Part shown: in pieces, positions 10,925 to 42,712 of the stretch
How the letters are laid out: every line of letters starts with the position of its first letter
Position numbering within the stretch: the stretch's first letter is position 1
Virus record (IMG/VR): IMGVR_UViG_3300032132_000748
Reading direction: 5' to 3' (one strand)
From: a virus
Taxonomy: Duplodnaviria > Caudoviricetes
DNA: 64,000 nucleotides
Notes under the pieces: model-generated
Database searches by the model: none
Seen by the model: the letters and a program-made list of their open reading frames with translations, nothing else
What the model was told of the DNA's origin: nothing
Translations under genes and position numbers: made by a program

Positions 10925-12274
10925 TTAATCAAAAGCAAGTGATATTTTCTTTCTAGAAGTGTCTATTCGTAGGACAGTGACATTAACTTCGTCCCCTAAA
11001 TGAAGGTCTTTAGACGTTACAGTATGGTGAGCAAGCCCTTCTACCCCTTTTTCTAATTCAACAAAAATACCGAAATTCATTTTACTAGTAACTTTGCCTA
11101 AGGTAGAACCTCCTACTAAGTAGCGGTCAGCAATTGTTTCCCAAGGATCGGCACTTATTTGTTTTAAACCTAGAGATAAGTGTTTCTTCTCAGCGTCAAT
11201 ACCCAGAATAACTACTTCAACTTTTTCGCCTTCCGTTAATATCTCTTTAGGATGTTTAATGTGAACTGACCAGCTTAAGTCGCTTACGTGAATAAGGCCA
11301 TTAATTCCTGGCTCAATTTCTACAAAAACACCATAGGGAACTATTGTTCCCACTTCTCCTACTACTCGATCATCGATATTATATTTGCTGACTAGTTCGT
11401 TCCAAGTAGGCTCAGTTACTTGTCTAATACCTAGAGAAATTCTATTTTGTTTTTTATCTATTTTGATGATTTTAGATTTAATTTTTTGCCCTATCTCTAG
11501 GGTTTCGGTGCCTTTATCAGAATCGTGGCATAGACCAATAATTCCATTTCCTATCTGAATAAATACTCCAAAGGCAGTAATATTTTTAACAGTTCCGTCA
11601 ACTACGGCGTCAACATACAGCCCCTCTAAGTAAGTTTCTTTAGCAATACGCCTAACCTCATTTGCATAGCACTGTCGTGTTAGGGTTACGTAGGCATCAT
11701 TAATTGATTCAATATCTGCTTCGATCTCTGAATCTATTAACACTTCTGGATCTTGACCTGGTGGGTAGAGCAAGAATTCTTGGTTTGATGGTAGTGTGGC
11801 AGGTAGCCCGCCAATATCTACCAACCATCCCATCTTGGTTCTTTGGATGAGTCTGCCTACTATTTTTTGGCCGACTTCGATTTCAGTTAAGACTTTTCTC
11901 TGCTGAATAATAAGATCAACGTTGGATCTAGCTAACTGGACTGCTCCGTCTTTAGTGATGTTTTTAACAAGGAATTTTGTTTCATCACCAATATCAAGAT
12001 CCTCATTAACAAATGTTTCACTTTCTCTATAAGGCACTAAGCCTTCTGTTTTGTGACCAAAATCTACAAGAACATAATCATTTCTTATGATCGCAACTCG
12101 ACCGTCTACGATATCTCCAACCGCAACGTTAGGTTTAACTCTCAAAAGCTCGTTATTATAGAGCAGTTCATCCATATCCACGTCTTGGAATATTTCGAGC
12201 ATCTGTTTTTCGAGTTCTTCTTCCGACGGAAGGAAGCGTCTCAAGGAATTTTTTACTTTATCGCTAGTTAGCAT
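10925..12274 (-). CDS. rpsA: 30S ribosomal protein S1 (about five S1 domains)
   Basis: repeated S1 motifs (VKNITAFGVFI, YGVFVEIEPGINGLIHVSDLSW, HLSLGLKQISADPW); start at MLTSDK after AGGTGAG. Confidence 0.9.
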   Translation of the reverse strand: MLTSDKVKNSLRRFLPSEEELEKQMLEIFQDVDMDELLYNNELLRVKPNVAVGDIVDGRVAIIRNDYVLVDFGHKTEGLVPYRESETFVNEDLDIGDETKFLVKNITKDGAVQLARSNVDLIIQQRKVLTEIEVGQKIVGRLIQRTKMGWLVDIGGLPATLPSNQEFLLYPPGQDPEVLIDSEIEADIESINDAYVTLTRQCYANEVRRIAKETYLEGLYVDAVVDGTVKNITAFGVFIQIGNGIIGLCHDSDKGTETLEIGQKIKSKIIKIDKKQNRISLGIRQVTEPTWNELVSKYNIDDRVVGEVGTIVPYGVFVEIEPGINGLIHVSDLSWSVHIKHPKEILTEGEKVEVVILGIDAEKKHLSLGLKQISADPWETIADRYLVGGSTLGKVTSKMNFGIFVELEKGVEGLAHHTVTSKDLHLGDEVNVTVLRIDTSRKKISLAFD

Positions 12275-12382
12275 AGTTCTCTCACCTAAAGGTTTATGTC
12301 TAAAGAGTAATACGAGAGAGGGCTTTGAACAAGTTTTGGACAATATAAGTAATTTCTAGTTAAAATAGCTAAAATAGAGTAA

Positions 12383-18688: not shown

Positions 18689-18726
18689 GTGAAAGGGGCT
18701 GCATCGCCTAGATGCAGCCCCTTCAC
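18689..18726 (+). terminator. stem-loop after the 17834 ORF
   Basis: GTGAAAGGGGCTGCATC...GATGCAGCCCCTTCAC. Confidence 0.6.
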
Positions 18727-18741
18727 GCAATGAGGACCGCT

Positions 18742-19404
18742 ATGGGCTTTTTGACCATCTACCCAGACAAACCGCATGAACGTGACGATAGCAACTTAGC
18801 TAAGTGGGACAAGTCTGGCAAGTACATCTGCCAGCAAAAAGTCGATGGCTGGCGGATGATTCTTCTCATTGGAGAGGATGAGGTTGATTTTGTTTCTCGG
18901 CATGACAAGCTGTTCAGCAACGACATCCAACCGGAACTTTATGCTCAAGCAAGACAGCTATGTGGGATATTTCCTGCTGGAACACAGCTTGACAGTGAGT
19001 GGCTTTCACGACGCTCATGTAGTGTAAGCAACAAGGTCAAGGGCAAGATCCCAGCCAAGCTCATCATCTTTGACATCTTGCGGCTAGGCAAGAAATGGCA
19101 GAAGAGCACGACATACGAAGCTCGGTGGGACATCTTGCTTGAACGGCTAGGTGATATTCCCGATTCCATGCCAGACGTGAGCCTTTCCGTTGTGGCGGAA
19201 CCCGGAACGTTTGAAACCTTCTACGAGGAGCAGCGCAAGATCGCCGTCAGTGAAGGTGTGGTCATCAAGCACAAGAAATCCAAGATGACTGGTGCTCGCA
19301 ATGGATGCATAAAGAACATGCAGCACTACAAAGTCAAGTATCGGGGAGGCAGTGACGGCGAGCAGTCGATGGATCATCTCAAAAAGAGGCCCGCAAAAGT
19401 TTGA
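18742..19404 (+). CDS. minimal ATP-dependent DNA ligase-like nucleotidyltransferase
   Basis: QQKVDGWR (motif I), LDSEW, IFDIL, EGVVIK, YKVK; GAGGA RBS before ATG 18742. Confidence 0.8.
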   Translation: MGFLTIYPDKPHERDDSNLAKWDKSGKYICQQKVDGWRMILLIGEDEVDFVSRHDKLFSNDIQPELYAQARQLCGIFPAGTQLDSEWLSRRSCSVSNKVKGKIPAKLIIFDILRLGKKWQKSTTYEARWDILLERLGDIPDSMPDVSLSVVAEPGTFETFYEEQRKIAVSEGVVIKHKKSKMTGARNGCIKNMQHYKVKYRGGSDGEQSMDHLKKRPAKV

Positions 19405-19979
19405 CAATCTGGTTCTATAGCGATCCTCATTTTGGGCACGCAGGGATCATTGATCGCTGCGGACGCCCCTATGACTCTGTACAAGAGATGGATGAGAAGC
19501 TAATCCAGAACTACCAAAAGTGCGTAAAGCCAAGAGATGATGTCTACATTCTAGGAGATGTAGCCATGAAGGGCAGCCACGAGAAGATCCTTCGTCGGCT
19601 GCCAGGTAACAAACATCTCATCGTAGGCAACCACGATTGGAACAAGAATACTCGTATTACGGACTCCCACAAAGAGGCTTTGCGCTCCTGGGGCTACGCT
19701 TGGGTCAAAGACACCCACTTGCTGTGTGTAAAGAATTACCACGGCCCCAAAGATCATCTCTACATCTGGCTTGCACATTACGCGCATCTGACCTGGCCCA
19801 AAAAACACAGCAAAGGTGCCTGGCACCTATTCGGTCACTCTCACGGAAACCTAGAAGGCACTGGACTCTCGACGGATGTTGGGGTAGACTGTTGGGACTA
19901 CGCTCCCGTCAGCCTTTCCCAAATCAAAGAACATCTCAGTAAGAAGGAAAAGCATGGACCGCAACCTTCGGCGTCTTGA
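19401..19979 (+). CDS. calcineurin-like metallophosphoesterase
   Basis: SDPHFGH, LGDV, GNHD and GHSH motifs. Confidence 0.9.
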   Translation: MTIWFYSDPHFGHAGIIDRCGRPYDSVQEMDEKLIQNYQKCVKPRDDVYILGDVAMKGSHEKILRRLPGNKHLIVGNHDWNKNTRITDSHKEALRSWGYAWVKDTHLLCVKNYHGPKDHLYIWLAHYAHLTWPKKHSKGAWHLFGHSHGNLEGTGLSTDVGVDCWDYAPVSLSQIKEHLSKKEKHGPQPSAS

Positions 19980-31904: not shown

Positions 31905-32098
31905 CTCTATATGATACCAATTAAGTGTTTGGGTGCTGAGAGCATATTTTTTGATTATTATTTCTACGAAATCTGAGGCTGGAGTCCTAAGTCCTTGGAG
32001 AAGCTCGACTTAAGAAAATTTGGAGTTTGATGACACCGGGAGGCCCCCCGCTAGTCATTGGTAGTGAACAGGGAGTAAAACCTCTGCTCAACAATTAT

Positions 32099-32171
32099 CC
32101 GCTCGTAGCTCAATTAGAAGAGCACCCGGCTGTCTACTGGAAGGTTGCGAGTGCAAGTCTCGTCGAGCGGG
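32099..32171 (+). tRNA. tRNA-Asp(GUC)
   Basis: cloverleaf, CCGCTCG/CGAGCGG acceptor, loop CT-GTC-TA. Confidence 0.85.
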
Positions 32172-32262
32172 TCGTGTTAAAGGTCAGGTGATACTGCATC
32201 TTTATCACAAATGATTGTTCATTTACAATTCGGAAGAGTGTGCGCTGAAAGGCGTACATCAT

Positions 32263-32334
32263 GCACGTCGAGCCATAGTAGTGAGGCGACAGTCTGCAAA
32301 ACTGTATAACCCGGTGCAAGTCCGGGGGCGTGCT
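32263..32334 (+). tRNA. tRNA-Cys(GCA)
   Basis: cloverleaf, loop CT-GCA-AA, U73. Confidence 0.85.
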
Positions 32335-32340
32335 TAATTT

Positions 32341-32412
32341 TGCCTGGTGGTGTAATAGTAGTCACGTTTGGTTTTGAACCAAAAAGCGAAGGAGCGTAAC
32401 CTTCTCGGGCAG
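32341..32412 (+). tRNA. tRNA-Gln(UUG)
   Basis: cloverleaf, U1-A72, loop TT-TTG-AA. Confidence 0.8.
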
Positions 32413-32484
32413 TACCTGGTCGTCTAATTAGTAGGACGCAAGGCTTTGGACTTTGTAATGCTCGTGCGAATCGAGCCCAGGTAG
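32413..32484 (+). tRNA. tRNA-Gln(UUG)
   Basis: cloverleaf, loop CT-TTG-GA. Confidence 0.85.
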
Positions 32485-32488
32485 TTTT

Positions 32489-32559
32489 AGCCCGGTGGTG
32501 TAATAGTATCACTTCTGACTCTGACTTAGACAATGCGCGTGCGAATCGCGCCTGGGCTG
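32489..32559 (+). tRNA. tRNA-Gln(CUG)
   Basis: cloverleaf, loop CT-CTG-AC. Confidence 0.85.
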
Positions 32560-32594
32560 TTGCATATATTTGTATGCTTGTTACTATGCTTCTT

Positions 32595-33002
32595 ATGACT
32601 GACAAAACACAAACTGTAGCTCGATTGTTACGAAAAGGCGTTTGCCATGATTGTGAAGCTAAGCCTGGCGAATACCATGATATGGGTTGCGACGTAGAAC
32701 GTTGTCCTGATTGTGGTGGGCAATTAATAGCTTGTCAGTGTGACGAACCCCGTGAAACCTTCGATGAAGGTGAACGTTTGATTTGGACGGGGGTATGGCC
32801 AGGAACGGAAGAATGTATTGAATATGGATTCTTTAATAAATGGGTCGTAACAGGGACAAGGGAATTTAGGGGTCACACCCTAGAAACAGGAGACTGGATA
32901 CCTTGTGATATTGACGATCCTGACGCCTCGGCTGACCTATGTGAGCTTTCAGAAAAAGCTACATGGGATAGTAACAAGCGCAAATATGTGCTTAACAAAT
33001 AA
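32595..33002 (+). CDS. Cys-rich hypothetical protein
   Basis: CHDC...H..GCDVERCPDCGGQLIACQC. Confidence 0.7.
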   Translation: MTDKTQTVARLLRKGVCHDCEAKPGEYHDMGCDVERCPDCGGQLIACQCDEPRETFDEGERLIWTGVWPGTEECIEYGFFNKWVVTGTREFRGHTLETGDWIPCDIDDPDASADLCELSEKATWDSNKRKYVLNK

Positions 33003-33006
33003 TCCT

Positions 33007-33079
33007 GGGGGATTAGTTTAAACAGGTAAAACACAGCTTTTGCAAGGCTGAGAAAACGGAGCATTACCGTTATCCTCCA
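33007..33079 (+). tRNA. tRNA-Ala(UGC)
   Basis: G3:U70 pair, loop TT-TGC-AA. Confidence 0.85.
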
Positions 33080-33080
33080 T

Positions 33081-33209
33081 ACGGGCCGATTGTTTTCGGT
33101 TATCATTTCCTGAATAGAAAAAGGGGTGGGTTCGACTCCCACGCTCCCCATACGAGGGGAGTTGGTGTACGGTGCATGTAAAAACTACTCGAAGACGCTT
33201 ATTGCTCGT
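33081..33209 (+). ncRNA. Y RNA-like RNA 1 (GAA loop, permuted tRNA module)
   Basis: GGGCCGA/TTGCTC bulged helix, TGTTTTCGG/TCGAAGACG stem, GTTATC, then T-arm, capped acceptor, D-arm. Confidence 0.8.
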
Positions 33210-33214
33210 TATTT

Positions 33215-33287
33215 TCTCCTTTAGCTCAATAGTTAGAGTACCGGTTTGTTAAACCGAGGGATCTGGGTGCAATTCCCAGGGGGAGAG
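33215..33287 (+). tRNA. tRNA-Asn(GUU)
   Basis: cloverleaf, loop TT-GTT-AA. Confidence 0.85.
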
Positions 33288-33345
33288 TTAATATTTTTAA
33301 CAGTAATATTTATCACAAACGTCTTAAATATGTGCAATAAATTTT

Positions 33346-33419
33346 GCCTCCATAGCTCAATTAAGCAGAGCAGCAGGTTTTTACCCTGAAGGTTGAAAGT
33401 GCAATTCTTTCTGGAGGTA
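33346..33419 (+). tRNA. tRNA-Lys(UUU)
   Basis: cloverleaf, loop TT-TTT-AC. Confidence 0.85.
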
Positions 33420-33460
33420 TTGTGTTTAACAAATTGTTTGTTAGACTAATGAAATAACAA

Positions 33461-33528
33461 ATGGGCCGAATGTCTTAGGTTATCTTGACTTGTAATCAAA
33501 CCTCCACCTAAAACAACTTTTTGCTCAT
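33461..33528 (+). ncRNA. Y RNA-like RNA 2 (minimal; UGU anticodon hairpin)
   Basis: ATGGGCCGAA...TTGCTCAT, TGTCTTAGG/CCTAAAACA stem, TTGA-CTTGTAA-TCAA hairpin. Confidence 0.75.
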
Positions 33529-33538
33529 TACTACACTA

Positions 33539-33619
33539 GCCGGTGTGGTGGAACGGCAGACACGCGACATTTAGGATGTCGTGCCTTAGGGCGTGGGGGT
33601 TCAAATCCCTTCACCGGCA
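33539..33619 (+). tRNA. tRNA-Leu(UAG)
   Basis: long variable arm, loop TT-TAG-GA, canonical TTC T-loop. Confidence 0.92.
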
Positions 33620-33621
33620 TA

Positions 33622-34140
33622 ATGCGAGAATCTAAATATACAAAGAAATTACTTGCTCCGATGGTTAAAAGAGCGACATCTATTGCAGAAGTTTTAGACG
33701 AGCTTTGTCTCAAACCCTCAGGAGGAAATTATAGAAATATTAAAGGGCACATTGTAAGACATAACATAGATATATCTCATTTTACAGGTCAAGCCTGGAG
33801 TAGAGGTAAAACTGTTGAAACTTCACCAGCAGTTAAGCGAATAACTAGACTTATATCCTATAAAGATTCTGAAATTTTCAAAAAAAATACCAATTGGAAC
33901 AACAGAGAGCTAATAAAACGTCTCTTTAAAGATGGAAAGAAATATGCATGTGAAATTAAAAAATGTCCTTTGTATGGCCAAGAAACCCCTGAATGGGCTG
34001 AAAAGAAACTAACTTTACATCTTGATCATATCGATGGTAATAAAACAAATAATGAAAAAGAAAACTTAAGATTTATTTGTCCAAATTGTCATCAACAAAC
34101 CCCTACTTGGGGTAACAGTAAGGCTTCGTGGCAGACTTAG
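33622..34140 (+). CDS. HNH homing endonuclease
   Basis: LHLDHIDGNKTNNEKENLRFICPNCHQQTPTW. Confidence 0.9.
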   Translation: MRESKYTKKLLAPMVKRATSIAEVLDELCLKPSGGNYRNIKGHIVRHNIDISHFTGQAWSRGKTVETSPAVKRITRLISYKDSEIFKKNTNWNNRELIKRLFKDGKKYACEIKKCPLYGQETPEWAEKKLTLHLDHIDGNKTNNEKENLRFICPNCHQQTPTWGNSKASWQT

Positions 34141-34204
34141 TAATGCACCAGACTCTTAATCTGGGATCGAAAGATCAATGTGGGTGCGAACCCCACCGAA
34201 GTTA
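34122..34204 (+). tRNA. tRNA with Lys(CUU) anticodon and long variable arm
   Basis: loop CT-CTT-AA, GATC-GAAA-GATC extra arm, 3-bp D stem. Confidence 0.8.
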
Positions 34205-34210
34205 TAAAAA

Positions 34211-34272
34211 GCGGGCCGCTAATATTCGGTTATCTATTTTGAAGAAACCCCCGAATATATTCTTTTGCTCGT
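34211..34272 (+). ncRNA. Y RNA-like RNA 3 (minimal; UUG loop)
   Basis: GCGGGCCG...TTGCTCGT, ATATTCGG/CCGAATAT stem, GTTATC. Confidence 0.7.
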
Positions 34273-34283
34273 AATAAAATAAA

Positions 34284-34357
34284 CGGAGAGTAGCGTAGTC
34301 TGGTATCGCGCTGCGTTTGGGACGCAGAGATCGCAGGTTCAAATCCTGTCTCTCCGA
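34284..34357 (+). tRNA. tRNA-Pro(UGG)
   Basis: canonical cloverleaf, loop TT-TGG-GA. Confidence 0.92.
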
Positions 34358-34360
34358 ATT

Positions 34361-34444
34361 GGATCATAAACTTGACAAGGGTCAGGCGCGGTTTTGAAAA
34401 CCGATGGTGCTGAAAGGTATGGGGTGCAAGTCCTCTGTGATCCG
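34361..34444 (+). tRNA. tRNA-Ser(UGA)
   Basis: GGA start, long variable arm, G73, loop TT-TGA-AA. Confidence 0.8.
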
Positions 34445-34446
34445 TA

Positions 34447-34546
34447 ATGGGCCGAATGTTTTTGGTTATCTAATTGGCAAAGAACCCTGGTTTAACAGGG
34501 AAAGAAGGTTCAAATCCTTCATACTTCAAAAACACCATTTGCTCAT
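34447..34546 (+). ncRNA. Y RNA-like RNA 4 (GGC/D-like loop, extra hairpin, T-arm)
   Basis: ATGGGCCGAA...TTGCTCAT, TGTTTTTGG/TCAAAAACA stem, GAAGG-TTCAAAT-CCTTC T-arm. Confidence 0.75.
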
Positions 34547-34549
34547 ATT

Positions 34550-34639
34550 GGAAACGATCCGGTTAGATGAGGAGCATGTTTGCTAAACATGTAATGCTTA
34601 CGTGAGTAGGTATTGGGGGTGCGAATCCCTCCGTTTCCG
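34550..34639 (+). tRNA. tRNA-Ser(GCU)
   Basis: long variable arm, loop TT-GCT-AA. Confidence 0.85.
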
Positions 34640-34701
34640 TTAAGTTTGTTGTCTTTATACATTATTTTGTATAATTAAACCTCTTTAAGAGGTTAATTAT
34701 C

Positions 34702-34968
34702 ATGGCAAGCCCGACAGCAATAGCAGCAGCAAAAAAAGAACTAGCAGAAGCAACATTGGCAATGAATGTGCCGTCTTGCACTCAGGGACCCGCACAAGGA
34801 TTACCAGCGGTTGTTTGTAATCCAGCTCTAGCTGCGAAAACAGAACAAGCAGGAAAGAAACTTGCAGCCCTTATGGGTGGCGGCGGTCATATGAAAATGA
34901 TTCTTCTTACTGTGGCTGTAGCAGCGGGTATCGGCGGCTTCCTTTGGTGGAAGAAAAAGAAATCGTAG
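34702..34968 (+). CDS. small tail-anchored membrane protein
   Basis: LMGGGG, then TM and WWKKKKS; TATAAT and AGAGG RBS. Confidence 0.65.
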   Translation: MASPTAIAAAKKELAEATLAMNVPSCTQGPAQGLPAVVCNPALAAKTEQAGKKLAALMGGGGHMKMILLTVAVAAGIGGFLWWKKKKS

Positions 34969-35004
34969 TATTGACTCCTCGATTATCCCTGTTAATTTAG
35001 GTGT

Positions 35005-35361
35005 ATGAAATCACCGAAAATCGACTCCATCGAGTGGGGTCAAATCAAAGTAAACGAACAAACTTTTAAAGATGTCAGACTATTCCCCGGAGGAGTAGAA
35101 GGCTGGGATTGGCGAAAAACAGACACGCATCACAGGCCCGGCATTCAGATTGCTGATCTTGAAGGGTTAATGGATGCAGATATTGTTGTTCTAAGTAAAG
35201 GTTTCAAAGGTTGTCTGTGTTGCATGGATGAGACAATTAAGCATCTAGAAGATGCCGGAAAGATTGTTTATCACGAAGAAACAAAAGAAGCGGTAGAGAC
35301 ATATAACTCATTTGTTGAAAATGAAAGTAAAGTGTCAGCTTTAATTCACTCTACTTGCTAA
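35005..35361 (+). CDS. Mth938-like (DUF498/AAMDC) protein
   Basis: SPKIDSIEWG..FKD..LFPGG..WDWRKTDTHHRPGIQ...EAVETYN...ALIHSTC. Confidence 0.85.
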   Translation: MKSPKIDSIEWGQIKVNEQTFKDVRLFPGGVEGWDWRKTDTHHRPGIQIADLEGLMDADIVVLSKGFKGCLCCMDETIKHLEDAGKIVYHEETKEAVETYNSFVENESKVSALIHSTC

Positions 35362-35365
35362 AAAT

Positions 35366-35449
35366 GGACAGTAGACCAGATGGGATCTGGCCTCGCTTGG
35401 AAAGCGAGTGGTGCCCTAGCGGCATGAGGATCGAGACCTCTGTTGTCCG
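35366..35449 (+). tRNA. tRNA-Ser(GGA)
   Basis: long variable arm, loop TT-GGA-AA. Confidence 0.82.
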
Positions 35450-35500
35450 AAATTAGTTGACAGGACTCTTCGAGTTCTGAGTCATCTAAATAACAAGCTT

Positions 35501-35571
35501 GGGTCCATAGTGTAACAGCAGCATACCGGCTTCCAAACCCGTTGGTGAGGGTGCAAATCCTTCTGGACTCG
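35501..35571 (+). tRNA. tRNA-Trp(CCA)
   Basis: loop TT-CCA-AA, G73; weak anticodon stem. Confidence 0.75.
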
Positions 35572-35578
35572 TTATTTA

Positions 35579-35650
35579 GGGTGCGTGGTGTAACAGCTAG
35601 CACTAGAGCCTGAAAAACTCTCGGAGAAGGTGCAATTCCTTCCGTGCCCA
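35579..35650 (+). tRNA. tRNA-Phe(GAA)
   Basis: cloverleaf, loop CT-GAA-AA. Confidence 0.85.
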
Positions 35651-35696
35651 ATTAATCAAACCCATCCTTAAAGGAGGATACTATGAGGAGAATTGA

Positions 35697-35972
35697 AACA
35701 AGAAATTAAAAGAGATCCGCTTCCGACCACGGATAGCGGATCATGATCTGAAGATCAGGGTGAAACAAGCCAAGAACTTCCTAGATAAAGGTCACCGAGT
35801 AAAGGTAACCGTAATATTTTGGGGTAGAAAGTTTTCAGACCGTAAGCATTTTATGAAAGATGCTGAACAACGGTTGAAAGTGTTCGAAAGTCTTGGTAAA
35901 GTGGTGTCACCCGTGAAGATGAACGGATCAAATTACTCAATGATACTTGAGTCAGTCAAGAAGAAAGAGTAA
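35697..35972 (+). CDS. infC: translation initiation factor IF3, C-terminal domain only; homology begins upstream of the first in-frame start
   Basis: frame reads KEIRFRPRIADHDLKIRVKQAKNFLDKGHRVKVTVIFWGR; in-frame TGA at 35694. Confidence 0.8.
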   Translation, partial: NKKLKEIRFRPRIADHDLKIRVKQAKNFLDKGHRVKVTVIFWGRKFSDRKHFMKDAEQRLKVFESLGKVVSPVKMNGSNYSMILESVKKKE

Positions 35973-35980
35973 TACATGTT

Positions 35981-36052
35981 GGCCCTATCGTCTAGCAGTT
36001 AGGATACTAGTTTCTCGAACTAGTGACGCCGGTGCAAATCCGGCTGGGGTTA
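35981..36052 (+). tRNA. tRNA-Glu(CUC)
   Basis: cloverleaf, loop TT-CTC-GA. Confidence 0.85.
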
Positions 36053-36060
36053 TTAAAATT

Positions 36061-36136
36061 GGGTGCGTGGCCAAACTGGATAAGGCATCTCGCTACGAAC
36101 GAGAAGATTTTGCAGGTTCGAATCCTGCCGTGCTCA
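36061..36136 (+). tRNA. tRNA-Arg(ACG)
   Basis: canonical cloverleaf, loop CT-ACG-AA. Confidence 0.9.
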
Positions 36137-36147
36137 TATAAAAACAC

Positions 36148-36220
36148 GCTCCTAAAGCATAAGTAGTGATGTGCCTGTCTTGTAAGCAGGAAAACGTGGG
36201 TGCAAATCCCCGTGGGAGCT
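36148..36220 (+). tRNA. tRNA-Thr(UGU)
   Basis: cloverleaf, loop CT-TGT-AA. Confidence 0.82.
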
Positions 36221-36223
36221 TTT

Positions 36224-36294
36224 GGGTCCTTAGTGAAGTAGAATCACGCTAGGTTTCGAACCTTGTATCGAGGGTGCAAATCCTTCAGGACCTA
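36224..36294 (+). tRNA. tRNA-Arg(UCG)
   Basis: cloverleaf, loop TT-TCG-AA. Confidence 0.85.
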
Positions 36295-36303
36295 TTAATA
36301 CTC

Positions 36304-36375
36304 GCCTCCGTGGTGTAACAGAAGCACGCTTCTCTTCTAAAGAAGATGGTTCGGGTGCAAATCCTGACGGGGGTA
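36304..36375 (+). tRNA. tRNA-Arg(UCU)
   Basis: cloverleaf, loop CT-TCT-AA. Confidence 0.85.
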
Positions 36376-36381
36376 TTAAAT

Positions 36382-36452
36382 GCGGGATTGATGTAGCAGT
36401 AGCATGACATCCTTCCAAGTTGTTCGCACGGGTGCAAATCCCGTATCCCGCT
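36382..36452 (+). tRNA. tRNA-Gly(UCC)
   Basis: GCG start, U73, loop CT-TCC-AA. Confidence 0.85.
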
Positions 36453-36470
36453 TTTTGGTATAATGTTTTC

Positions 36471-36803
36471 ATGGGCTATGAAGCATTCGGTAACTTTGGA
36501 AGAACTCCTGAAGAAGTAATAGAAACCGCAAAGAAACAAAAGAAAATAGAGACTGCCGCAAGAGCGGTTTTACATCCTCTTTCTACTATTGTTTCAGGAA
36601 CAGCTAAAGTAGCTGGAGGAAACGGAAAACCTGTTGATGAGGAGCTTTATATTAAGGCCATTATTATCAAAATAATGAAAGACAAAGGTCTTCATCCTCA
36701 TGCTTCACTAGAAGATTTAATTCGCAAAACAGTTAAACAAGTAATGCGAGAAGAATCAGCAGGGCATCCTCATTGGAAACATCCAACGCTAAAAAGAAAA
36801 TAA
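36471..36803 (+). CDS. hypothetical protein
   Basis: ATG 6 nt after TGG-TATAAT; MGYEAFGNFG start. Confidence 0.6.
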   Translation: MGYEAFGNFGRTPEEVIETAKKQKKIETAARAVLHPLSTIVSGTAKVAGGNGKPVDEELYIKAIIIKIMKDKGLHPHASLEDLIRKTVKQVMREESAGHPHWKHPTLKRK

Positions 36804-36806
36804 TTT

Positions 36807-36878
36807 GGGTCTATAGTGTAATAGATAACATGTTTCTCTCCTAAAGAAACGATCTGGGTGCGACTCCCGGTAGACCTA
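36807..36878 (+). tRNA. tRNA-Arg(CCU)
   Basis: cloverleaf, loop CT-CCT-AA. Confidence 0.85.
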
Positions 36879-36879
36879 T

Positions 36880-37013
36880 TGATGGGCCGATAATTGTCAG
36901 TTATCGTTATCATAAAACCAAGGCGACGGTTCGATTCCGTCCCCCGCGATTCGTAGCGGGGTGGAGTAATGGCAGCTCGTGAAAAACACTTGACAGTGAC
37001 CCTTTGCTCATCA
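36880..37013 (+). ncRNA. Y RNA-like RNA 5 (CAU loop, permuted initiator-tRNA-like module)
   Basis: TGATGGGCCGA...TTGCTCATCA, ATTGTCAG/TTGACAGT stem; TCATAA, T-arm, CCCCGC/GCGGGG, D-arm. Confidence 0.82.
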
Positions 37014-37028
37014 GTCATATACATACAA

Positions 37029-37114
37029 GCTAGCGTGGCGTAATTAGCAGGCGCGGAAGGCTTAAACCCTTCTGGGAGTTAAATCCCGTGCAGGTGCAAA
37101 TCCTGTCGCTAGCA
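37029..37114 (+). tRNA. tRNA-Leu(UAA)
   Basis: long variable arm, loop CT-TAA-AC. Confidence 0.87.
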
Positions 37115-37240
37115 TTTGATGGGCCGAATTGTTTTCGGTTATCGCATTCCAAGCCGGAAGTCAGGGCGCGAATCCCTGCTTTGTAGTGTAATAGTAGCAC
37201 GCCGTAAAAAACGTCGAAGACGCATTTATTGCTCATCAAA
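37115..37240 (+). ncRNA. Y RNA-like RNA 6 (UCC loop, permuted module lacking acceptor stem)
   Basis: TTTGATGGGCCGAA...TTGCTCATCAAA; T-arm CAGGG/CCCTG then D-arm GTGT/GCAC. Confidence 0.8.
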
Positions 37241-37244
37241 ACCA

Positions 37245-37317
37245 CCTGGGTAGGTGTAATTAGAAGTCACGCGTATCTGTGGAATACGAGGATTGGGTGC
37301 AAACCCCAGACCCAGGA
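37245..37317 (+). tRNA. tRNA-His(GUG)
   Basis: loop CT-GTG-GA; A at -1 and at 73. Confidence 0.8.
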
Positions 37318-37320
37318 TAA

Positions 37321-37391
37321 GCCCGATTAGTTCAATAGTAGAATGTATGTGTGACTTACATAAGACAAAGGTGCGATTCCTTTATCGGGCA
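37321..37391 (+). tRNA. tRNA-Val(GAC)
   Basis: cloverleaf, loop GT-GAC-TT. Confidence 0.8.
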
Positions 37392-37411
37392 TGATATGTT
37401 ATTCTTTAGAT

Positions 37412-38068
37412 ATGCTTTGCGAGAATTGTAAAAAATATTCCTATAAAGGACCGCTTCCTAACTGTGGGGTGTGCCCTAAATCAGAATTTACTCCAAATCT
37501 ATTTATTAGAATTCCAAAAACGGCTAGTGTTTCTATTCATGTGGTGCCAGGCATTGATGCCTACCACAAAGTTGTGTCAGGAATAGGGCATAATACTGCC
37601 GAACAACTTAAGGAGTTTCTTGGAGAGGATCTATACAACTCGCGGTTCACCTTTGCTATAGCCAGAAATCCTTATGACCGACTGGTAAGTGCTTACCACT
37701 ATTTTGTTCAAAAAGCCGCCCGTAAATGGTCCAAAGCCCTTGCTAAAGAATTCCCAACATTCAAAAGTTTTTGCTATCAATTTAATAGGGAAAAATACGA
37801 AGGTGAGAGGCAACAGTTTAGATTACAAAAAGAATTTGTTGTTGATAAGAATGATGAAGTAATTGTTGATTACATTGGGAGGTTTGAGTCCTTACACCAA
37901 TCCTGGGAAGTAATTAAAAAAAGGCTCAATTTGAGTGACAGTTTAGACCACCTAAACAAGTCTAAACATAAGGCATGGCAGTCATATTATGACGAAAAAT
38001 GTCAGGATATAGTTTATAGAAGCTACAAAGAAGATTTTGAGTTTTTTGGCTATCCGGAAAAAATATAG
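37412..38068 (+). CDS. sulfotransferase (Sulfotransfer_2-like)
   Basis: FIRIPKTASVSI, RNPYDRLVSAY, DYIGRFESL, DFEFFGY. Confidence 0.85.
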   Translation: MLCENCKKYSYKGPLPNCGVCPKSEFTPNLFIRIPKTASVSIHVVPGIDAYHKVVSGIGHNTAEQLKEFLGEDLYNSRFTFAIARNPYDRLVSAYHYFVQKAARKWSKALAKEFPTFKSFCYQFNREKYEGERQQFRLQKEFVVDKNDEVIVDYIGRFESLHQSWEVIKKRLNLSDSLDHLNKSKHKAWQSYYDEKCQDIVYRSYKEDFEFFGYPEKI

Positions 38069-38139
38069 CGGCCTATAGTAGAGAAGCAGCACGCTTGTTT
38101 TACACGCAAGAAAAGATGGAGCGTTACCATCTAGGCCGA
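38069..38139 (+). tRNA. tRNA-Val(UAC)
   Basis: cloverleaf, loop TT-TAC-AC. Confidence 0.8.
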
Positions 38140-38142
38140 TAT

Positions 38143-38216
38143 TGGTGTTTCGTCTAATTGGTAAAGATCCTGTGCTCATAACACAGATAATCTCGGTTCG
38201 AGTCCGAGGGCACCAA
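38143..38216 (+). tRNA. tRNA-Met/Ile2(CAU)
   Basis: canonical cloverleaf, loop CT-CAT-AA. Confidence 0.85.
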
Positions 38217-38221
38217 ACTAC

Positions 38222-38294
38222 GCCCCTGTAGTATAATAGATAATTACAAGTCTTTGGTAAGGACTAGACCCGCGTGCAATTCGCGGCAGGGGCT
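38222..38294 (+). tRNA. tRNA-Thr(GGU)
   Basis: cloverleaf, loop TT-GGT-AA. Confidence 0.82.
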
Positions 38295-38327
38295 TGATGA
38301 TATTATCATAAAAGCTATAAAGCTATT

Positions 38328-38978
38328 ATGGCCGCTCCTCATCCAAAAAATACTAATTTTTACCAAGACACCTTAAATTTGAGACAAAGATATCGGTTGA
38401 GTAATCAACAAATAAACGATATTATCAATAATAAGGAAAAAAGAGTAAGTCAATCAGCGATAAACGGCTGGCTTAAAAAATTTCCTCTTTCCGGGGAGGA
38501 GCGACTAGAGAGTTTTGTCAAAAATATGAAACTCACCCGCTACAATCCCGGAGAACCTTCTAAATTTTGGACCCCTGAAATCAAAAATTTTAGTCGAAAT
38601 CAAGTTGGTAAAATAGCAGAAGCAGCGATTCTTTATCGACTGCTCCTTAACAACCACACAGTTTACTGCTCTCCTTTTGATGGAGACGTTGCTGACTGGT
38701 TGGTAGTTACACCTACTAAAAGCTACAAAATTCAAGTGCGAAAAGCTAAAACTCCAAAAACAGGTAAACCTATCATTTCTCTGTGTTGTAAGGACAACTC
38801 TAAAACAGATGAAATAATGAGGAGATTAACAGCCAATGACTACGATTTTATCGTGGGATATGATATCTATAAAGATAATGCTTACGTTTTTTCTTATGAG
38901 GAAACAAAAAATAATAAGACTTCTATAACAATAAGAGATGATGCACTTGAGGCGTGGCATAAAATAAGTTGTTTATAG
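38328..38978 (+). CDS. PD-(D/E)XK homing-type endonuclease with N-terminal HTH
   Basis: GKIAE...DWLV...KIQVR...DYDFIVGY, as in group I intron-associated PD-(D/E)XK nucleases. Confidence 0.75.
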   Translation: MAAPHPKNTNFYQDTLNLRQRYRLSNQQINDIINNKEKRVSQSAINGWLKKFPLSGEERLESFVKNMKLTRYNPGEPSKFWTPEIKNFSRNQVGKIAEAAILYRLLLNNHTVYCSPFDGDVADWLVVTPTKSYKIQVRKAKTPKTGKPIISLCCKDNSKTDEIMRRLTANDYDFIVGYDIYKDNAYVFSYEETKNNKTSITIRDDALEAWHKISCL

Positions 38979-39021
38979 TTACAAATATTGCGATGTCAGA
39001 GCCATCTGATATCATCCAAAT

Positions 39022-39429
39022 ATGGCCTATTCCGAAAAAGTTGTAGATCACTTCAATAATCCACGAAATGTTGGATCATTAAACAAGAATGATCTAGACG
39101 TAGGAACTGGTATTGTCGGTGCCCCCGAATGTGGGGACGTAATGCGTTTACAACTCAAAATAAAGAACAATATTATTCAAGAAGCGAAATTTAAGACCTT
39201 CGGTTGTGGTTCAGCCATAGCAAGTTCTTCATTAGCTACTGAATGGGTCTTAGGAAAGTCCCTTGATGAGGCTAATAAAATAAAGAATGTTCAATTCGTT
39301 GAAGAACTATCTTTACCTCCTGTAAAAATACACTGTAGTGTGCTCGCAGAAGATGCGATCAAGGCTGCAATTAAAGACTACAAAGCAAAACAAAACACCA
39401 AAGTCGAAGACTTTACAGTTAAAGTATGA
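39022..39429 (+). CDS. iscU: Fe-S cluster scaffold IscU
   Basis: MAYSEKVVDHF.NPRNVG, GAPECGDVM, KFKTFGCGSAIASSS, LPPVKIHCS. Confidence 0.97.
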   Translation: MAYSEKVVDHFNNPRNVGSLNKNDLDVGTGIVGAPECGDVMRLQLKIKNNIIQEAKFKTFGCGSAIASSSLATEWVLGKSLDEANKIKNVQFVEELSLPPVKIHCSVLAEDAIKAAIKDYKAKQNTKVEDFTVKV

Positions 39430-39653
39430 CTGATCTAGCTGATCTTCAGCGGATTCTCAAAGAGATGAGAAAAGAAAATAAAAGACTTCGATCAGAACGA
39501 AAACATTTCATAGCTAGAGATGGTCTACGACACTTAAATAATTACACCATTAGAACAATAGAATCATCTTACTACCAAGATAAAAAAGGTAGATACAGAT
39601 GCCAAGATTGTAAACGTTTTGTAATTGAACCTCGACATACAACGCTCTTATAG
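39426..39653 (+). CDS. hypothetical protein
   Basis: ATGA-coupled to iscU; CxxC. Confidence 0.45.
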   Translation: MTDLADLQRILKEMRKENKRLRSERKHFIARDGLRHLNNYTIRTIESSYYQDKKGRYRCQDCKRFVIEPRHTTLL

Positions 39654-39715
39654 TTTAATTAGTAGAATCTCTGTTTCGTAATCAGAGGGAGTCAGTGCAA
39701 TTCTGACTAAGAGCT
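39644..39715 (+). tRNA. tRNA-Thr(CGU)
   Basis: cloverleaf, loop TT-CGT-AA. Confidence 0.82.
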
Positions 39716-39733
39716 TTTGGTATAATTCGTATC

Positions 39734-40015
39734 ATGCAATTATCCTACTACACAACACCAGGAACCGGACCCTTAAGCTGGCAAAAAACAAACGAAAATG
39801 TTCGTAAAGTCAGTGATAATGAATTTCGTAAGCATACGTCTTCATTTTATGACCTAGATGGCAAAAAAGAAGGCTTTCTTTCAAAGTTAGCCAAAGCTTT
39901 CAAAGGCAAGAAGAAACGTCCAAAAGGTTCTTGGGGGTTACGTGTTGGTCATAGAGGAGATACCTCTCAGCGACCAGGATTTTTGCAGGGCATTGACGAT
40001 CACTGGTGGGGTTAA
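39734..40015 (+). CDS. hypothetical protein
   Basis: ATG 7 nt after TGG-TATAAT. Confidence 0.55.
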   Translation: MQLSYYTTPGTGPLSWQKTNENVRKVSDNEFRKHTSSFYDLDGKKEGFLSKLAKAFKGKKKRPKGSWGLRVGHRGDTSQRPGFLQGIDDHWWG

Positions 40016-40096
40016 GTCCTTCAACTTCAAGCATTTAAGAAAATATCAATCAAGTGACAGCTAACTTCGGTTAGTTAGTCATTAATATACAACCGC

Positions 40097-40168
40097 AGCG
40101 GTATGGTGTAAGTAGTAACTCACTAATTTCATACGTTAGAGTTATGGGTGCAAGTCCCGTTACCGCTA
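40097..40168 (+). tRNA. tRNA-Met/Ile2(CAU)
   Basis: AGCGGTA/TACCGCT acceptor, loop TT-CAT-AC. Confidence 0.78.
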
Positions 40169-40172
40169 TTAC

Positions 40173-40243
40173 GGGGATATGGTGAAACAGGATCATATTT
40201 GCCTGGCAGGCAAAAGTTTTGGGCGCGATTCCCAATATCTCCA
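40173..40243 (+). tRNA. tRNA-Ala(GGC)
   Basis: G3:U70, loop CT-GGC-AG. Confidence 0.83.
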
Positions 40244-40246
40244 TAT

Positions 40247-40384
40247 ATGATGGGCCGACTTTGTTTTCGGTTATCGATCTACGGAATCCGTGGAGGAGGT
40301 TCGAATCCTTCACTCTCGATACGTCGAGAGTTAGTGTAATGGTAGCACACGCAAACCCCGAGGACGCCCTTTATTGCTCGTCAT
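40247..40384 (+). ncRNA. Y RNA-like RNA 7 (ACG loop, permuted tRNA module)
   Basis: ATGATGGGCCGA...TTGCTCGTCAT; GAT-CTACGGA-ATC hairpin, T-arm, ACTCTCGA-TACG-TCGAGAGT capped acceptor, D-arm. Confidence 0.82.
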
Positions 40385-40388
40385 GTTT

Positions 40389-40462
40389 CAGGCTGTAGCT
40401 CAGCTTAGTAGAGCGCTAGTTCGGGGAACTAGAAGTCGCAGGTGCGAATCCTGTCAGCCTGA
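40389..40462 (+). tRNA. tRNA-Pro(GGG)
   Basis: C1-G72, A73, loop TC-GGG-GA (C33). Confidence 0.8.
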
Positions 40463-40514
40463 TTTTTTAAAAGTGTCAATCATATTGACTGGAGCAGAAG
40501 GAAAAGGTGAACCG

Positions 40515-41399
40515 ATGGGTTACCAAAAAATCAAAAATCTGTACCAGGATCCAACAATCCTAACACTCTTCCGAGAAGTATACTGTCTAGAAAAAATTCA
40601 CGGCACATCAGCTCATATTACATGGAAAGATGGAAAAGTGAGCTATTTCTCTGGCGGTGAAAAGCATGCTAATTTCGTAAAGCTATTTGATGAGGAAACT
40701 CTTGTTAAAAAGCTCACCGAAGAATTCGGTAACTACACTACTGTTACTATTTACGGTGAGGCTTACGGAGGTAGCTGCCAGAGAATGTCTACCACTTATG
40801 GTAAGCAGCTAAGATTCGTTGCTTTTGAAGTCAATATTGACGATCACTGGCTCGACGTTCTAAACGCTGAAGATGTTACTAAGAAAATGGGTCTTGAATT
40901 CGTTGATTACATTAAGGGTCCTGCTACTCTTGAATTTGTTAACGAACAACGGGATCGTCCCAGCACTCAGGCTATTCGTAATGGTATTACTGATGAGCCT
41001 AAGCTTCGAGAAGGTGTCGTTATTCGACCCTTAATTGAGCTTGCTAAGAATGACGGTAATCGTCTTATGGTGAAGCACAAGGGAGAAGCATTCTCAGAGC
41101 ACAAAACTCCTCGTGAGGTTAACCCTGAGAAAGTGAAAGTCATGTCTGACGCTAGAGAAATAGCCGAAGACTGGGTCACTGCAATGCGTCTTGAACACGT
41201 AATGGACAAACTCAGCCCTGACGGTATTGAATTAACTGTTAAAAGCACTAGAGAAGTGATTTCTGCAATGGTTCAGGACGTTAAGGACGAGAGTGAGGGA
41301 GAAATCGTATGGACTCCTGCTGTCTCCAAGGCAATCGGTAAAGCGGCTGCGAACTTGTTTCATAGGCATCTTAAATCGAAGCTTGCCAGCCTAGAATAG
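40515..41399 (+). CDS. Rnl2-family RNA ligase
   Basis: Y.KI, EKIHGT (motif I), IYGE.YGG, AFEV, REGVVIRP, VKHK..F.E; start MGYQK after AAGGTGA. Confidence 0.85.
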   Translation: MGYQKIKNLYQDPTILTLFREVYCLEKIHGTSAHITWKDGKVSYFSGGEKHANFVKLFDEETLVKKLTEEFGNYTTVTIYGEAYGGSCQRMSTTYGKQLRFVAFEVNIDDHWLDVLNAEDVTKKMGLEFVDYIKGPATLEFVNEQRDRPSTQAIRNGITDEPKLREGVVIRPLIELAKNDGNRLMVKHKGEAFSEHKTPREVNPEKVKVMSDAREIAEDWVTAMRLEHVMDKLSPDGIELTVKSTREVISAMVQDVKDESEGEIVWTPAVSKAIGKAAANLFHRHLKSKLASLE

Positions 41400-41804: not shown

Positions 41805-42712
41805 ATGACACCGCTAAACGCATTTTAACTCGATTTGAGGAATTCGGATTTCCTCTCCATATCGACAAAAACATTCTTCCGAATGACAATTCAACTGTCT
41901 TTGTTTGCTCAGGGATGCAACAGGTTAAAGAGAGATTCTCAAATCCTGACGGATCCAAATACGGCTCACTTCAGAGCTGCATTAGAACAAACGATATAGA
42001 CTTAATCGGTGATGGCTCACATCTCACATATTTTGAGATGATGGGCAATTTTTCTTTTGGGGGCGATGATTACTTTGCTTCAATTGATCTTTGGGATTGC
42101 TTACTCAAAGATCTAAAAATCCCCGTTACCCACATTACCGTTCACCCAACTCAGGATCACCACAAACAATATTGGCTCAATAAGGGCTACCAAGTCAAAC
42201 CGGACGAAGAATGTGTCTGGAGCGACGGAAATATTGGTGGATATTGTTGTGAGGTATTTGTAGGAGACCTAGAGATAGGTAACCTAGTTAATACTTTGGG
42301 ACACTCGACAGACGTTGGGTTTGGTTTCGAGAGAATTATTCAAATAATCGAGCAAAAGTCTAGAGTAGACGAAACTTCGATATTTGACCAGACTCTCCAC
42401 CCAATTGTTCGGGACCACTACCGAACATTACTATCCCTCAAAGAAAATGGGGTAGATCCTGGCTATAAAAGTAGAAACTGTATTACTCGAAGGCTACTTC
42501 ATCGTGCCCTCGACCTAGAAGATCAATCTAAACTATCTGAATTTTCAGAATGGATTGAATCTGAAAAGCAGCTCTACGAAAAAAAGCTTAGAACTGCTAA
42601 GAGAGTTTGGAAGAAGCATAAAAAGAAGCCCTACTCCTGGTGGAAAGAAAGCTTCGGTTTAACAGAGGACGAGTATGATCTTCTTGTTAAGATGAAAGCT
42701 AAGCCAGGTTAA
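41795..42712 (+). CDS. truncated alanyl-tRNA synthetase-like protein (aminoacylation domain only)
   Basis: ILPNDNSTVFVCSGMQQ, QSCIRTNDIDLIGDGSHLTYFEMMGNFSFG, LEIGNLV, DVGFGFERI, DHYRT; frame open from 41795, first in-frame ATG 41915. Confidence 0.82.
   Translation, partial: EVDYDTAKRILTRFEEFGFPLHIDKNILPNDNSTVFVCSGMQQVKERFSNPDGSKYGSLQSCIRTNDIDLIGDGSHLTYFEMMGNFSFGGDDYFASIDLWDCLLKDLKIPVTHITVHPTQDHHKQYWLNKGYQVKPDEECVWSDGNIGGYCCEVFVGDLEIGNLVNTLGHSTDVGFGFERIIQIIEQKSRVDETSIFDQTLHPIVRDHYRTLLSLKENGVDPGYKSRNCITRRLLHRALDLEDQSKLSEFSEWIESEKQLYEKKLRTAKRVWKKHKKKPYSWWKESFGLTEDEYDLLVKMKAKPG

What the first reader, a model, noticed from the sequence alone, without database searches (positions are those of the whole stretch)
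33101..40290. Each Y-like RNA displays a different anticodon loop
Seen: 2-5 nt after GTTATC every copy has a 7-nt loop with U in second place, usually on a 2-4-bp stem: CTGAATA (GAA, Phe), CTTGTAA (UGU, Thr; identical to the loop of tRNA-Thr at 36148), TTTTGAA (UUG, Gln; identical to tRNA-Gln at 32341), TTGGCAA (GGC, Ala), ATCATAA (CAU, Met), ATTCCAA (UCC, Gly) and CTACGGA (ACG, Arg). That is seven copies with seven different anticodons. Copies 2 and 3 consist of little more than scaffold plus this loop. Copies 3 and 4 have weak closing stems and are the least certain. Established: anticodon nucleases (PrrC, RloC, VapC, PARIS AriB) are anti-phage or stress effectors. Inference: a constant protein-binding handle carrying a variable anticodon cassette, i.e. 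a decoy or sensor library for tRNA-cleaving defences, or an adaptor for tRNA-specific enzymes.
Basis: partly seen in the sequence, partly recalled or inferred. Interest (0 to 1): 0.9.

Follow-up and report, generated by a model that had tools for sequence, protein, structure and literature searches.

The report
Y RNAs displaying swappable anticodon loops
A giant marine phage hides seven small Y RNAs (partners of the ring protein Ro60) among its tRNA genes, and most show a tRNA anticodon loop whose three letters change quickly between relatives, which suggests bait for the tRNA-cutting enzymes bacteria use against phages.

Summary
Mostly confirmed, and general. All seven copies are real Y RNAs of the YrlA/YrlB kind. 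Five loops hold as read (copy 1 weakly). Copy 3 fits better one base upstream (UUU), and copy 4 is unsupported. In homologues found with patterns blind to the loop, 174 of 228 carry an anticodon stem-loop (22 expected). U33, purine 37 and tRNA spacing are kept, 51 triplets occur, and G37 follows G36 as in tRNA. The anticodon stem is complete but split by the Ro60 handle, so the long copies are whole permuted cloverleaves. The hairpin published as YrlA's 'V arm' is, by position, an anticodon arm. Short forms keep only handle plus loop. The triplet is uncoupled from the body and changes about 2.5 times faster than synonymous sites in Nostocaceae. Ro60 is the only constant neighbour; it is not in this window. 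Best reading (0.45, inferred): bait that brings anticodon nucleases to Ro60. A cleavage sensor is the main rival. I found no paper describing this, but three reviews were unreadable. This scan noted the same design before on other DNA (e1-2161917, e1-3496498, e1-5466833, e1-5493077).

The parts
33081..33209 (+). Copy 1: long Y RNA, complete permuted cloverleaf with 7-bp acceptor closed by a loop; loop 33110-33116, triplet GAA, atypical U37; anticodon stem split 1+4
33461..33528 (+). Copy 2: short form, handle plus 4-bp anticodon stem-loop; loop 33489-33495, triplet UGU
34211..34272 (+).
34447..34546 (+). Copy 4: handle, a 9-nt-loop hairpin, an extra 5-bp hairpin and a T arm; no D arm or acceptor; anticodon not assignable
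36882..37011 (+). Copy 5: long Y RNA, body resembling tRNA-Met; loop 36909-36915, triplet CAU; stem split 2+3
37119..37236 (+). Copy 6: long Y RNA with the acceptor stem almost deleted; loop 37146-37152, triplet UCC; stem split 3+2
40250..40381 (+). Copy 7: long Y RNA, 8-bp acceptor capped by a tetraloop; loop 40279-40285, triplet ACG with G37; stem split 2+3; a competing hairpin is predicted
32098..40463 (+). Array of 33 tRNA genes in which the Y RNAs are interleaved; only 4 keep the canonical UUC T loop
40515..41399 (+). Rnl2-type RNA ligase gene closing the array; link to the Y RNAs is inferred only
   Evidence: PF09414, E 5e-13; start codon

Best explanation
The copies are Ro60-bound Y RNAs that present a host-like anticodon loop as bait. 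Shown by sequence: a conserved Ro60-type handle; in long copies a full tRNA cloverleaf in permuted order, with the handle grafted into the 5' strand of the anticodon stem and the acceptor end closed; in short copies only handle plus anticodon stem-loop; a triplet that is swapped freely. Inferred: the RNAs are cut out of the tRNA-array transcript and load on the phage's Ro60. An activated tRNA-cutting defence or toxin enzyme binds the mimic through elbow and anticodon loop, and the tethered Ro60 ring holds or blocks it, sparing real tRNA. Several triplets cover several nuclease specificities, and the triplet turns over as the nucleases change.
For: Loop consensus in homologues found without specifying it: 174/228 against 22 shuffled, 51 triplets, loop-to-T-stem 9-10 nt in 153/174; geometry-only loops have U33 89% and purine 37 93%. 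Class-specific loop context is copied: G37 in 29/40 Pro/Leu/Arg/His loops against 4/113 non-G36 loops, U32 in 11/16 Pro loops. The body does not predict the triplet, 11/194 against 10.6 by permutation, while real tRNAs classify at 98/150. The triplet differs in 18 of 31 pairs with at least 90% body identity and diverges at 0.49 per site against 0.19 at four-fold sites of the adjacent rsr gene, with no change at U33. Short forms drop the elbow but keep the loop, 59/172 against 4.9. Decoding is not required: CCA follows the acceptor in only 14/105, and non-ACG A34 occurs in 26/157 against 4/1098 tRNAs. The Y copies keep a host-like T loop (4/5) that this phage's tRNAs have lost (4/33), p=0.004, and four other phages show the same. 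Ro60 is the only constant neighbour, 128/201 loci, always on the same strand; RtcB only 6/201. A phage Ro60-like protein counters an anti-phage system (PMC11482910). The Salmonella rsr-yrl operon is induced by cut tRNA (PMC7790460).
Against: No binding, cleavage or protection data. No Ro60 in the window; its presence 145 kb away rests on an unchecked note. A plain competitor would have to outnumber cellular tRNA, so trapping by Ro60 is needed and unshown. The defence countered by Bas63 gp130 (Ppl) is not described as a tRNA nuclease in that paper. About a third of homologues (105/333, shorter or longer spacer) show no loop enrichment. Part of the fast turnover in Nostocaceae is shuffling of paralogues in a tandem array. 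RNAalifold does not predict the short stems unaided. Homologues were thinned at 85% identity but are not independent lineages.
Confidence: 0.45

Rival explanations
1. Tripwire or gate: the Y RNA keeps Ro60 inactive until a nuclease cuts its anticodon loop, and the cut frees or switches Ro60 to protect or hand over nicked tRNA for repair.
For: All loop evidence above fits equally. It needs no excess over tRNA. Bound Y RNA inhibits Rsr in D. radiodurans rRNA maturation (PMC4201824). An RNA ligase closes this array.
Against: No downstream effector is a constant neighbour. A32 and A34 are far commoner than in tRNA, which may make some loops poor substrates.
Confidence: 0.2
2. The loop is a leftover of tRNA ancestry, refreshed by gene conversion from tRNA genes. 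The working part is the elbow that tethers PNPase or stabilises the RNA, as proposed for known Y RNAs.
For: The RNAs sit among tRNA genes; about 60% of loops equal a real tRNA loop exactly; copy 5 has a Met body and a Met triplet. Phage phiLo Ro60 with its Y RNAs binds and dampens PNPase (PMC12135203). Salmonella YrlA has no such loop.
Against: Short forms lose the elbow and keep the loop. U33 does not change while neighbouring bases change faster than neutral sites. Bodies do not match triplets, and 32/157 loops carry Ser/Leu/Tyr triplets on short-variable-arm bodies.
Confidence: 0.13
3. Adaptor for repair: the loop docks an RNA ligase or healing enzyme on Ro60.
For: Ligase at 40515-41399; rsr-yrl-rtcB operons.
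Against: RtcB is beside only 6/201 loci. Ligases do not read the triplet, so its turnover is unexplained.
Confidence: 0.1
4. Ligand for other anticodon readers: synthetases, modification enzymes or T-box leaders.
For: Class-specific positions 32, 37 and 38 are copied.
Against: These readers are conserved, so fast triplet turnover is unexpected. Ser, whose synthetase ignores the anticodon (established knowledge), is the commonest class, 20/157.
Confidence: 0.08
5. Precursors of working two-piece tRNAs, opened by RNase P and charged.
For: Complete cloverleaf. M. smegmatis YrlA is cut by RNase P and gains CCA. Copy 1 has a 7-bp acceptor.
Against: Acceptor absent or nearly so in copies 2, 3, 4 and 6; CCA in 14/105; body and triplet disagree; the handle sits in the anticodon stem and should clash with the ribosome (inference).
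Confidence: 0.04

Closest known systems
YrlA Y RNAs of bacteria and mycobacteriophages (Chen et al. 2014, PMC4201824; structure Wang et al. 2018, bioRxiv 10.1101/312249; Rfam RF02553)
   Same: 5' GNCGA-type motif, YUAY motif, T arm before D arm, closed acceptor stem, link to Ro60.
   Different: Published YrlA is said to lack an anticodon loop, and the hairpin before the T arm is called V. Here that hairpin is the lower half of a split anticodon arm with a variable triplet. It is also present beside Ro60 in Bxz1 and Myrna. There are seven copies, far from Ro60, none reaching the Rfam score.
YrlB, Yrn2 and phiLo Yrl1/Yrl2 short Y RNAs (PMC4201824; PMC12135203)
   Same: Short hairpin Y RNAs with the same kind of handle, several per locus.
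   Different: [quoted passage not shown]
rsr-yrlBA-rtcBA RNA repair operon (Hughes et al. 2020, PMC7790460)
   Same: Ro60 and Y RNA tied to anticodon-loop cleavage; the authors suggest YrlA may competitively inhibit the nuclease.
   Different: That idea was for a loop-less YrlA that is not cut. No RtcR, RtcA or RtcB here; no triplet specificity was proposed.
Nuclease-resistant phage tRNAs (van den Berg et al. 2023, PMC10264068)
   Same: Phage RNAs answering host tRNA cleavage, in the same arrays.
   Different: Those replace tRNA and avoid recognition; these cannot decode and look more host-like than the neighbouring tRNAs.
Circularly permuted tRNA genes of algae and archaea (as discussed in 10.1101/312249)
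   Same: 3' half precedes 5' half with a closed acceptor.
   Different: Those mature into decoding tRNAs; these carry a Ro60 handle and mismatched identity elements.

Membership tests
YrlA-type bacterial Y RNA | 5' GNCGA(A) Ro60 motif on a stem joining the two ends | tested here: met
   GGCCGA in six copies, GGCCGC in copy 3; terminal stem predicted in all
YrlA-type bacterial Y RNA | T arm, closed acceptor, D arm in that order | tested here: met
   Copies 1, 5, 7; copy 6 with vestigial acceptor. Copies 2-4 lack it and are YrlB-like
YrlA-type bacterial Y RNA | YUAY motif before the V region | tested here: met
   GUUAUC in all seven
YrlA-type bacterial Y RNA | Ro60 gene within about 4 kb on the same strand | tested here: not met
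   No Ro60 hit in the window. Met by homologues: 128/201 loci; 5/5 jumbo phages with such RNAs encode TROVE, in at least two over 100 kb from the RNAs
YrlA-type bacterial Y RNA | Ro60 encoded somewhere in the same genome | not testable with these tools
   No genome is held; only an unchecked note, e1-5634432
YrlA-type bacterial Y RNA | Binds Ro60; carries tRNA modifications | not testable with these tools
   Needs experiment
Rfam RF02553 (YrlA) | Score at or above 69 bits | tested here: not met
   No hit in the window at E up to 10; homologue genomes reach at most 52.5 bits
YrlA as published | No anticodon loop | tested here: not met
   Loop present in five or six copies and 174/228 homologues
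Canonical decoding tRNA | Anticodon arm geometry: 5-bp stem, 7-nt loop, U33, purine 37, 9-10 nt to the T stem | tested here: met
   90/105 homologues pair all of 39-43, on two strands; compensatory changes on an unfitted alignment
Canonical decoding tRNA | Free acceptor with CCA and a body matching the anticodon | tested here: not met
   no CCA after the acceptor in any window copy
Anti-nuclease decoy | Binds or is cut by an anticodon nuclease and protects translation | not testable with these tools
   Indirect support only

The most novel reading that the evidence does not exclude
Ro60 with these Y RNAs is an RNA-programmed inhibitor or sensor of tRNA-cleaving enzymes, used by phages and bacteria alike. 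The anticodon triplet sets which nuclease is neutralised, and arrays like this one are a repertoire under arms-race selection.
Probability: 0.4. Interest if true: 0.93.

Novelty: new variant of a known kind. Interest (0 to 1): 0.78.

Why it matters
What the tRNA-like domain of bacterial Y RNA is for has been open since 2014, and the papers I could read state that it has no anticodon loop. A conserved, split anticodon arm with a fast-changing triplet, in hundreds of phage and bacterial loci and in cultured phages (Bxz1, Myrna, Cashline, Boopy), turns the question into a one-variable test: swap the triplet and see whether protection follows the nuclease's specificity. If it does, this is a programmable RNA-protein counter-defence. 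It also affects annotation, since some of these RNAs are deposited as tRNAs.

Tried and rejected
No whole genome is held, so Ro60 could not be checked. The ligase found no relatives or source contig. A loose first pattern gave mostly chance hits. Rfam names none of the copies; a weak RF00019 match to copy 2 (E 5.9) is not counted. Sequencing runs: no RNA holder listed; the one DNA run may be the source and shows no loop variants. The promoter scan is at chance level. Distinct triplets within a locus (1 of 41 pairs identical, about 1.4 expected) is uninformative. Comparing G37 use between viral and cellular tRNA sets showed no useful contrast. Plasmids gave no full match. Single-sequence folding and RNAalifold cannot resolve 2-3-bp stems. 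Three Wolin-lab reviews and Burroughs and Aravind 2016 were not held, and the figure sequences of Chen 2014 were not available, so equating the V hairpin with this arm rests on its described position and on Bxz1. Rejected: chance in AT-rich DNA; decoding tRNA; a feature unique to this phage.
Full report
Setting. The window looks like part of a huge phage from a marine metagenome. It encodes ribosomal protein S1, an IF3 domain, DnaK, an NAD ligase and an integrase-family protein. An array of 33 tRNA genes runs from 32098 to 40463 and ends with an Rnl2-type RNA ligase. No whole genome is held.

The observation. Seven copies of one handle lie in the array, against 0.04 expected. Their two ends pair, and all seven match a model built from outside homologues. 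Copies 1, 5, 6 and 7 have T arm, closed acceptor and D arm in the YrlA order; copies 2 and 3 are short; copy 4 has a T arm only. Scored against homologues, the loops of copies 2, 5, 6 and 7 are well supported and copy 1 weakly (U37). Copy 3 fits better one base upstream, and copy 4 is not supported.

Homologue test. I searched viral, genome and metagenome collections with patterns that fix only the handle and the T loop. After thinning at 85% identity, 333 remained. In the main spacer class (20-24 nt), 174 of 228 carry a loop with at least two closing pairs, U33 and purine 37, against about 22 in shuffles; the result holds in each collection. Loops chosen by geometry alone have U33 in 89% and purine 37 in 93%, with under 0.1 bit at the three triplet positions. 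G37 follows G36 (p = 5e-14), and Pro loops have U32, as in tRNA. The 105 homologues with shorter or longer spacers show no enrichment.

Anatomy. The anticodon stem is complete but built from two strands. Pairs 27:43 and 28:42 use the bases just after the D arm (87/105 and 79/105 Watson-Crick, against 53 and 33 shuffled; slid controls at chance). The lower pairs use the bases at and after the YUAY motif (30:40 in 103/105), and 90 of 105 pair all of 39-43. An unfitted alignment shows the same compensatory changes. By direct reading, the four long window copies split 1+4, 2+3, 3+2 and 2+3. So the long RNAs are whole permuted cloverleaves with the Ro60 handle grafted into the anticodon stem. Short forms with handle plus loop only are common: 59 of 172 have a stem of three or more pairs, against 4.9 shuffled.

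The triplet is a cassette. The body does not predict it (11/194 against 10.6; control 98/150); copy 5 is an exception. In 31 disjoint pairs with at least 90% body identity the triplet differs in 18 and U33 in one. In Nostocaceae, the RNA just upstream of rsr (confirmed as Ro60) carries Asn, Gly, Lys, Pro, His, Met or Ile loops. Its triplet diverges at 0.49 per site against 0.19 at four-fold sites of rsr, and U33 never changes. Shuffling of tandem paralogues explains part of this.

Not for decoding. CCA follows the acceptor in 14 of 105, and A34 and A32 are far commoner than in tRNA. Yet the RNAs stay host-like where this phage's tRNAs do not: canonical T loop in 4 of 5 against 4 of 33 (p = 0.004), with the same contrast in four other phages.

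Partner. Ro60 is the only constant neighbour (128 of 201 loci, always the same strand); RtcB is beside six. Five of five jumbo phages with such RNAs encode Ro60, in at least two cases over 100 kb away. The window has none; an unchecked note places one 145 kb further on.

Mechanism. The structure, the Ro60 link and the triplet turnover are shown from sequence; the function is inferred. Among proteins that read anticodon loops, nucleases of defence and toxin systems are the ones in conflict with phages and variable in specificity (established knowledge). I therefore favour bait that delivers a nuclease to Ro60 (0.45), then a cleavage-triggered gate (0.2); together they make 0.65 for a nuclease-facing role. 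Against: no functional data, weak predicted stems, a competing fold for copy 7, and the excess a simple decoy would need.

Relation to what is known. Chen et al. 2014 call the hairpin before the T arm 'V', and Wang et al. 2018 state that YrlA lacks the anticodon loop. Hughes et al. 2020 floated competitive inhibition of a nuclease for loop-less Salmonella YrlA. Phage Ro60 proteins are reported to counter Ppl and to dampen PNPase, with no mention of anticodons. Ten searches found no description of the loop, but several reviews could not be read. Cultured phages carry it beside Ro60: Bxz1 (UGC), Myrna (GCG), Cashline and Boopy. Earlier notes of this scan report the same design on other DNA; they are unchecked and are not counted as evidence.

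Verdict. A real feature and a new variant of a known kind: Y RNAs with a split anticodon arm and a swappable triplet. Interest 0.78.

Noticed in passing
L157 (minus strand, tandem array before rsr); L149 3999-4531: In cyanobacterial tandem arrays the acceptor 5' strand pairs better with the next unit, which ends in ACCA, and a short loop closes the handle. These may mature into tRNA-order RNAs with a CCA end and an internal handle, the opposite permutation to YrlA.
   Followed up: partly
window 32098-40463: 29 of 33 tRNA genes lack the canonical UUC T loop, most having G at position 55; possibly evasion of elbow-reading enzymes.
   Followed up: partly
L459 4034-4101 and 4220-4308 (Gordonia phage Boopy): Two anticodon-bearing Y RNAs overlap features deposited as tRNA-Ile and tRNA-Leu.
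   Followed up: partly
homologue set: A34 triplets other than ACG in 26/157 loops, mostly G34-to-A versions of common anticodons; may be uncleavable variants.
   Followed up: no
window 41915-42712: Protein with only an N-terminal alanyl-tRNA synthetase fragment (PF01411) just after the RNA ligase.
   Followed up: no
window 10925-12343 (-), 35712-35972 (+): Virus-borne ribosomal protein S1 and an IF3 C-terminal domain, the latter inside the tRNA array.
   Followed up: no
window 33622-34140, 35005-35361, 37391-38068, 38328-38978, 39022-39429: HNH, DUF498, sulfotransferase, PD-(D/E)XK and IscU/NifU genes inserted between tRNA genes.
   Followed up: no
window 18712-19404: A second, ATP-dependent ligase-family gene next to a probable phosphoesterase ORF (19401-19979), possibly an end-healing and sealing pair.
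   Followed up: no
L421, L426, L427: Jumbo-phage Y RNAs with a tyrosine-like body and long variable arm; the loop reads GUA in two and GGA in one.
   Followed up: no
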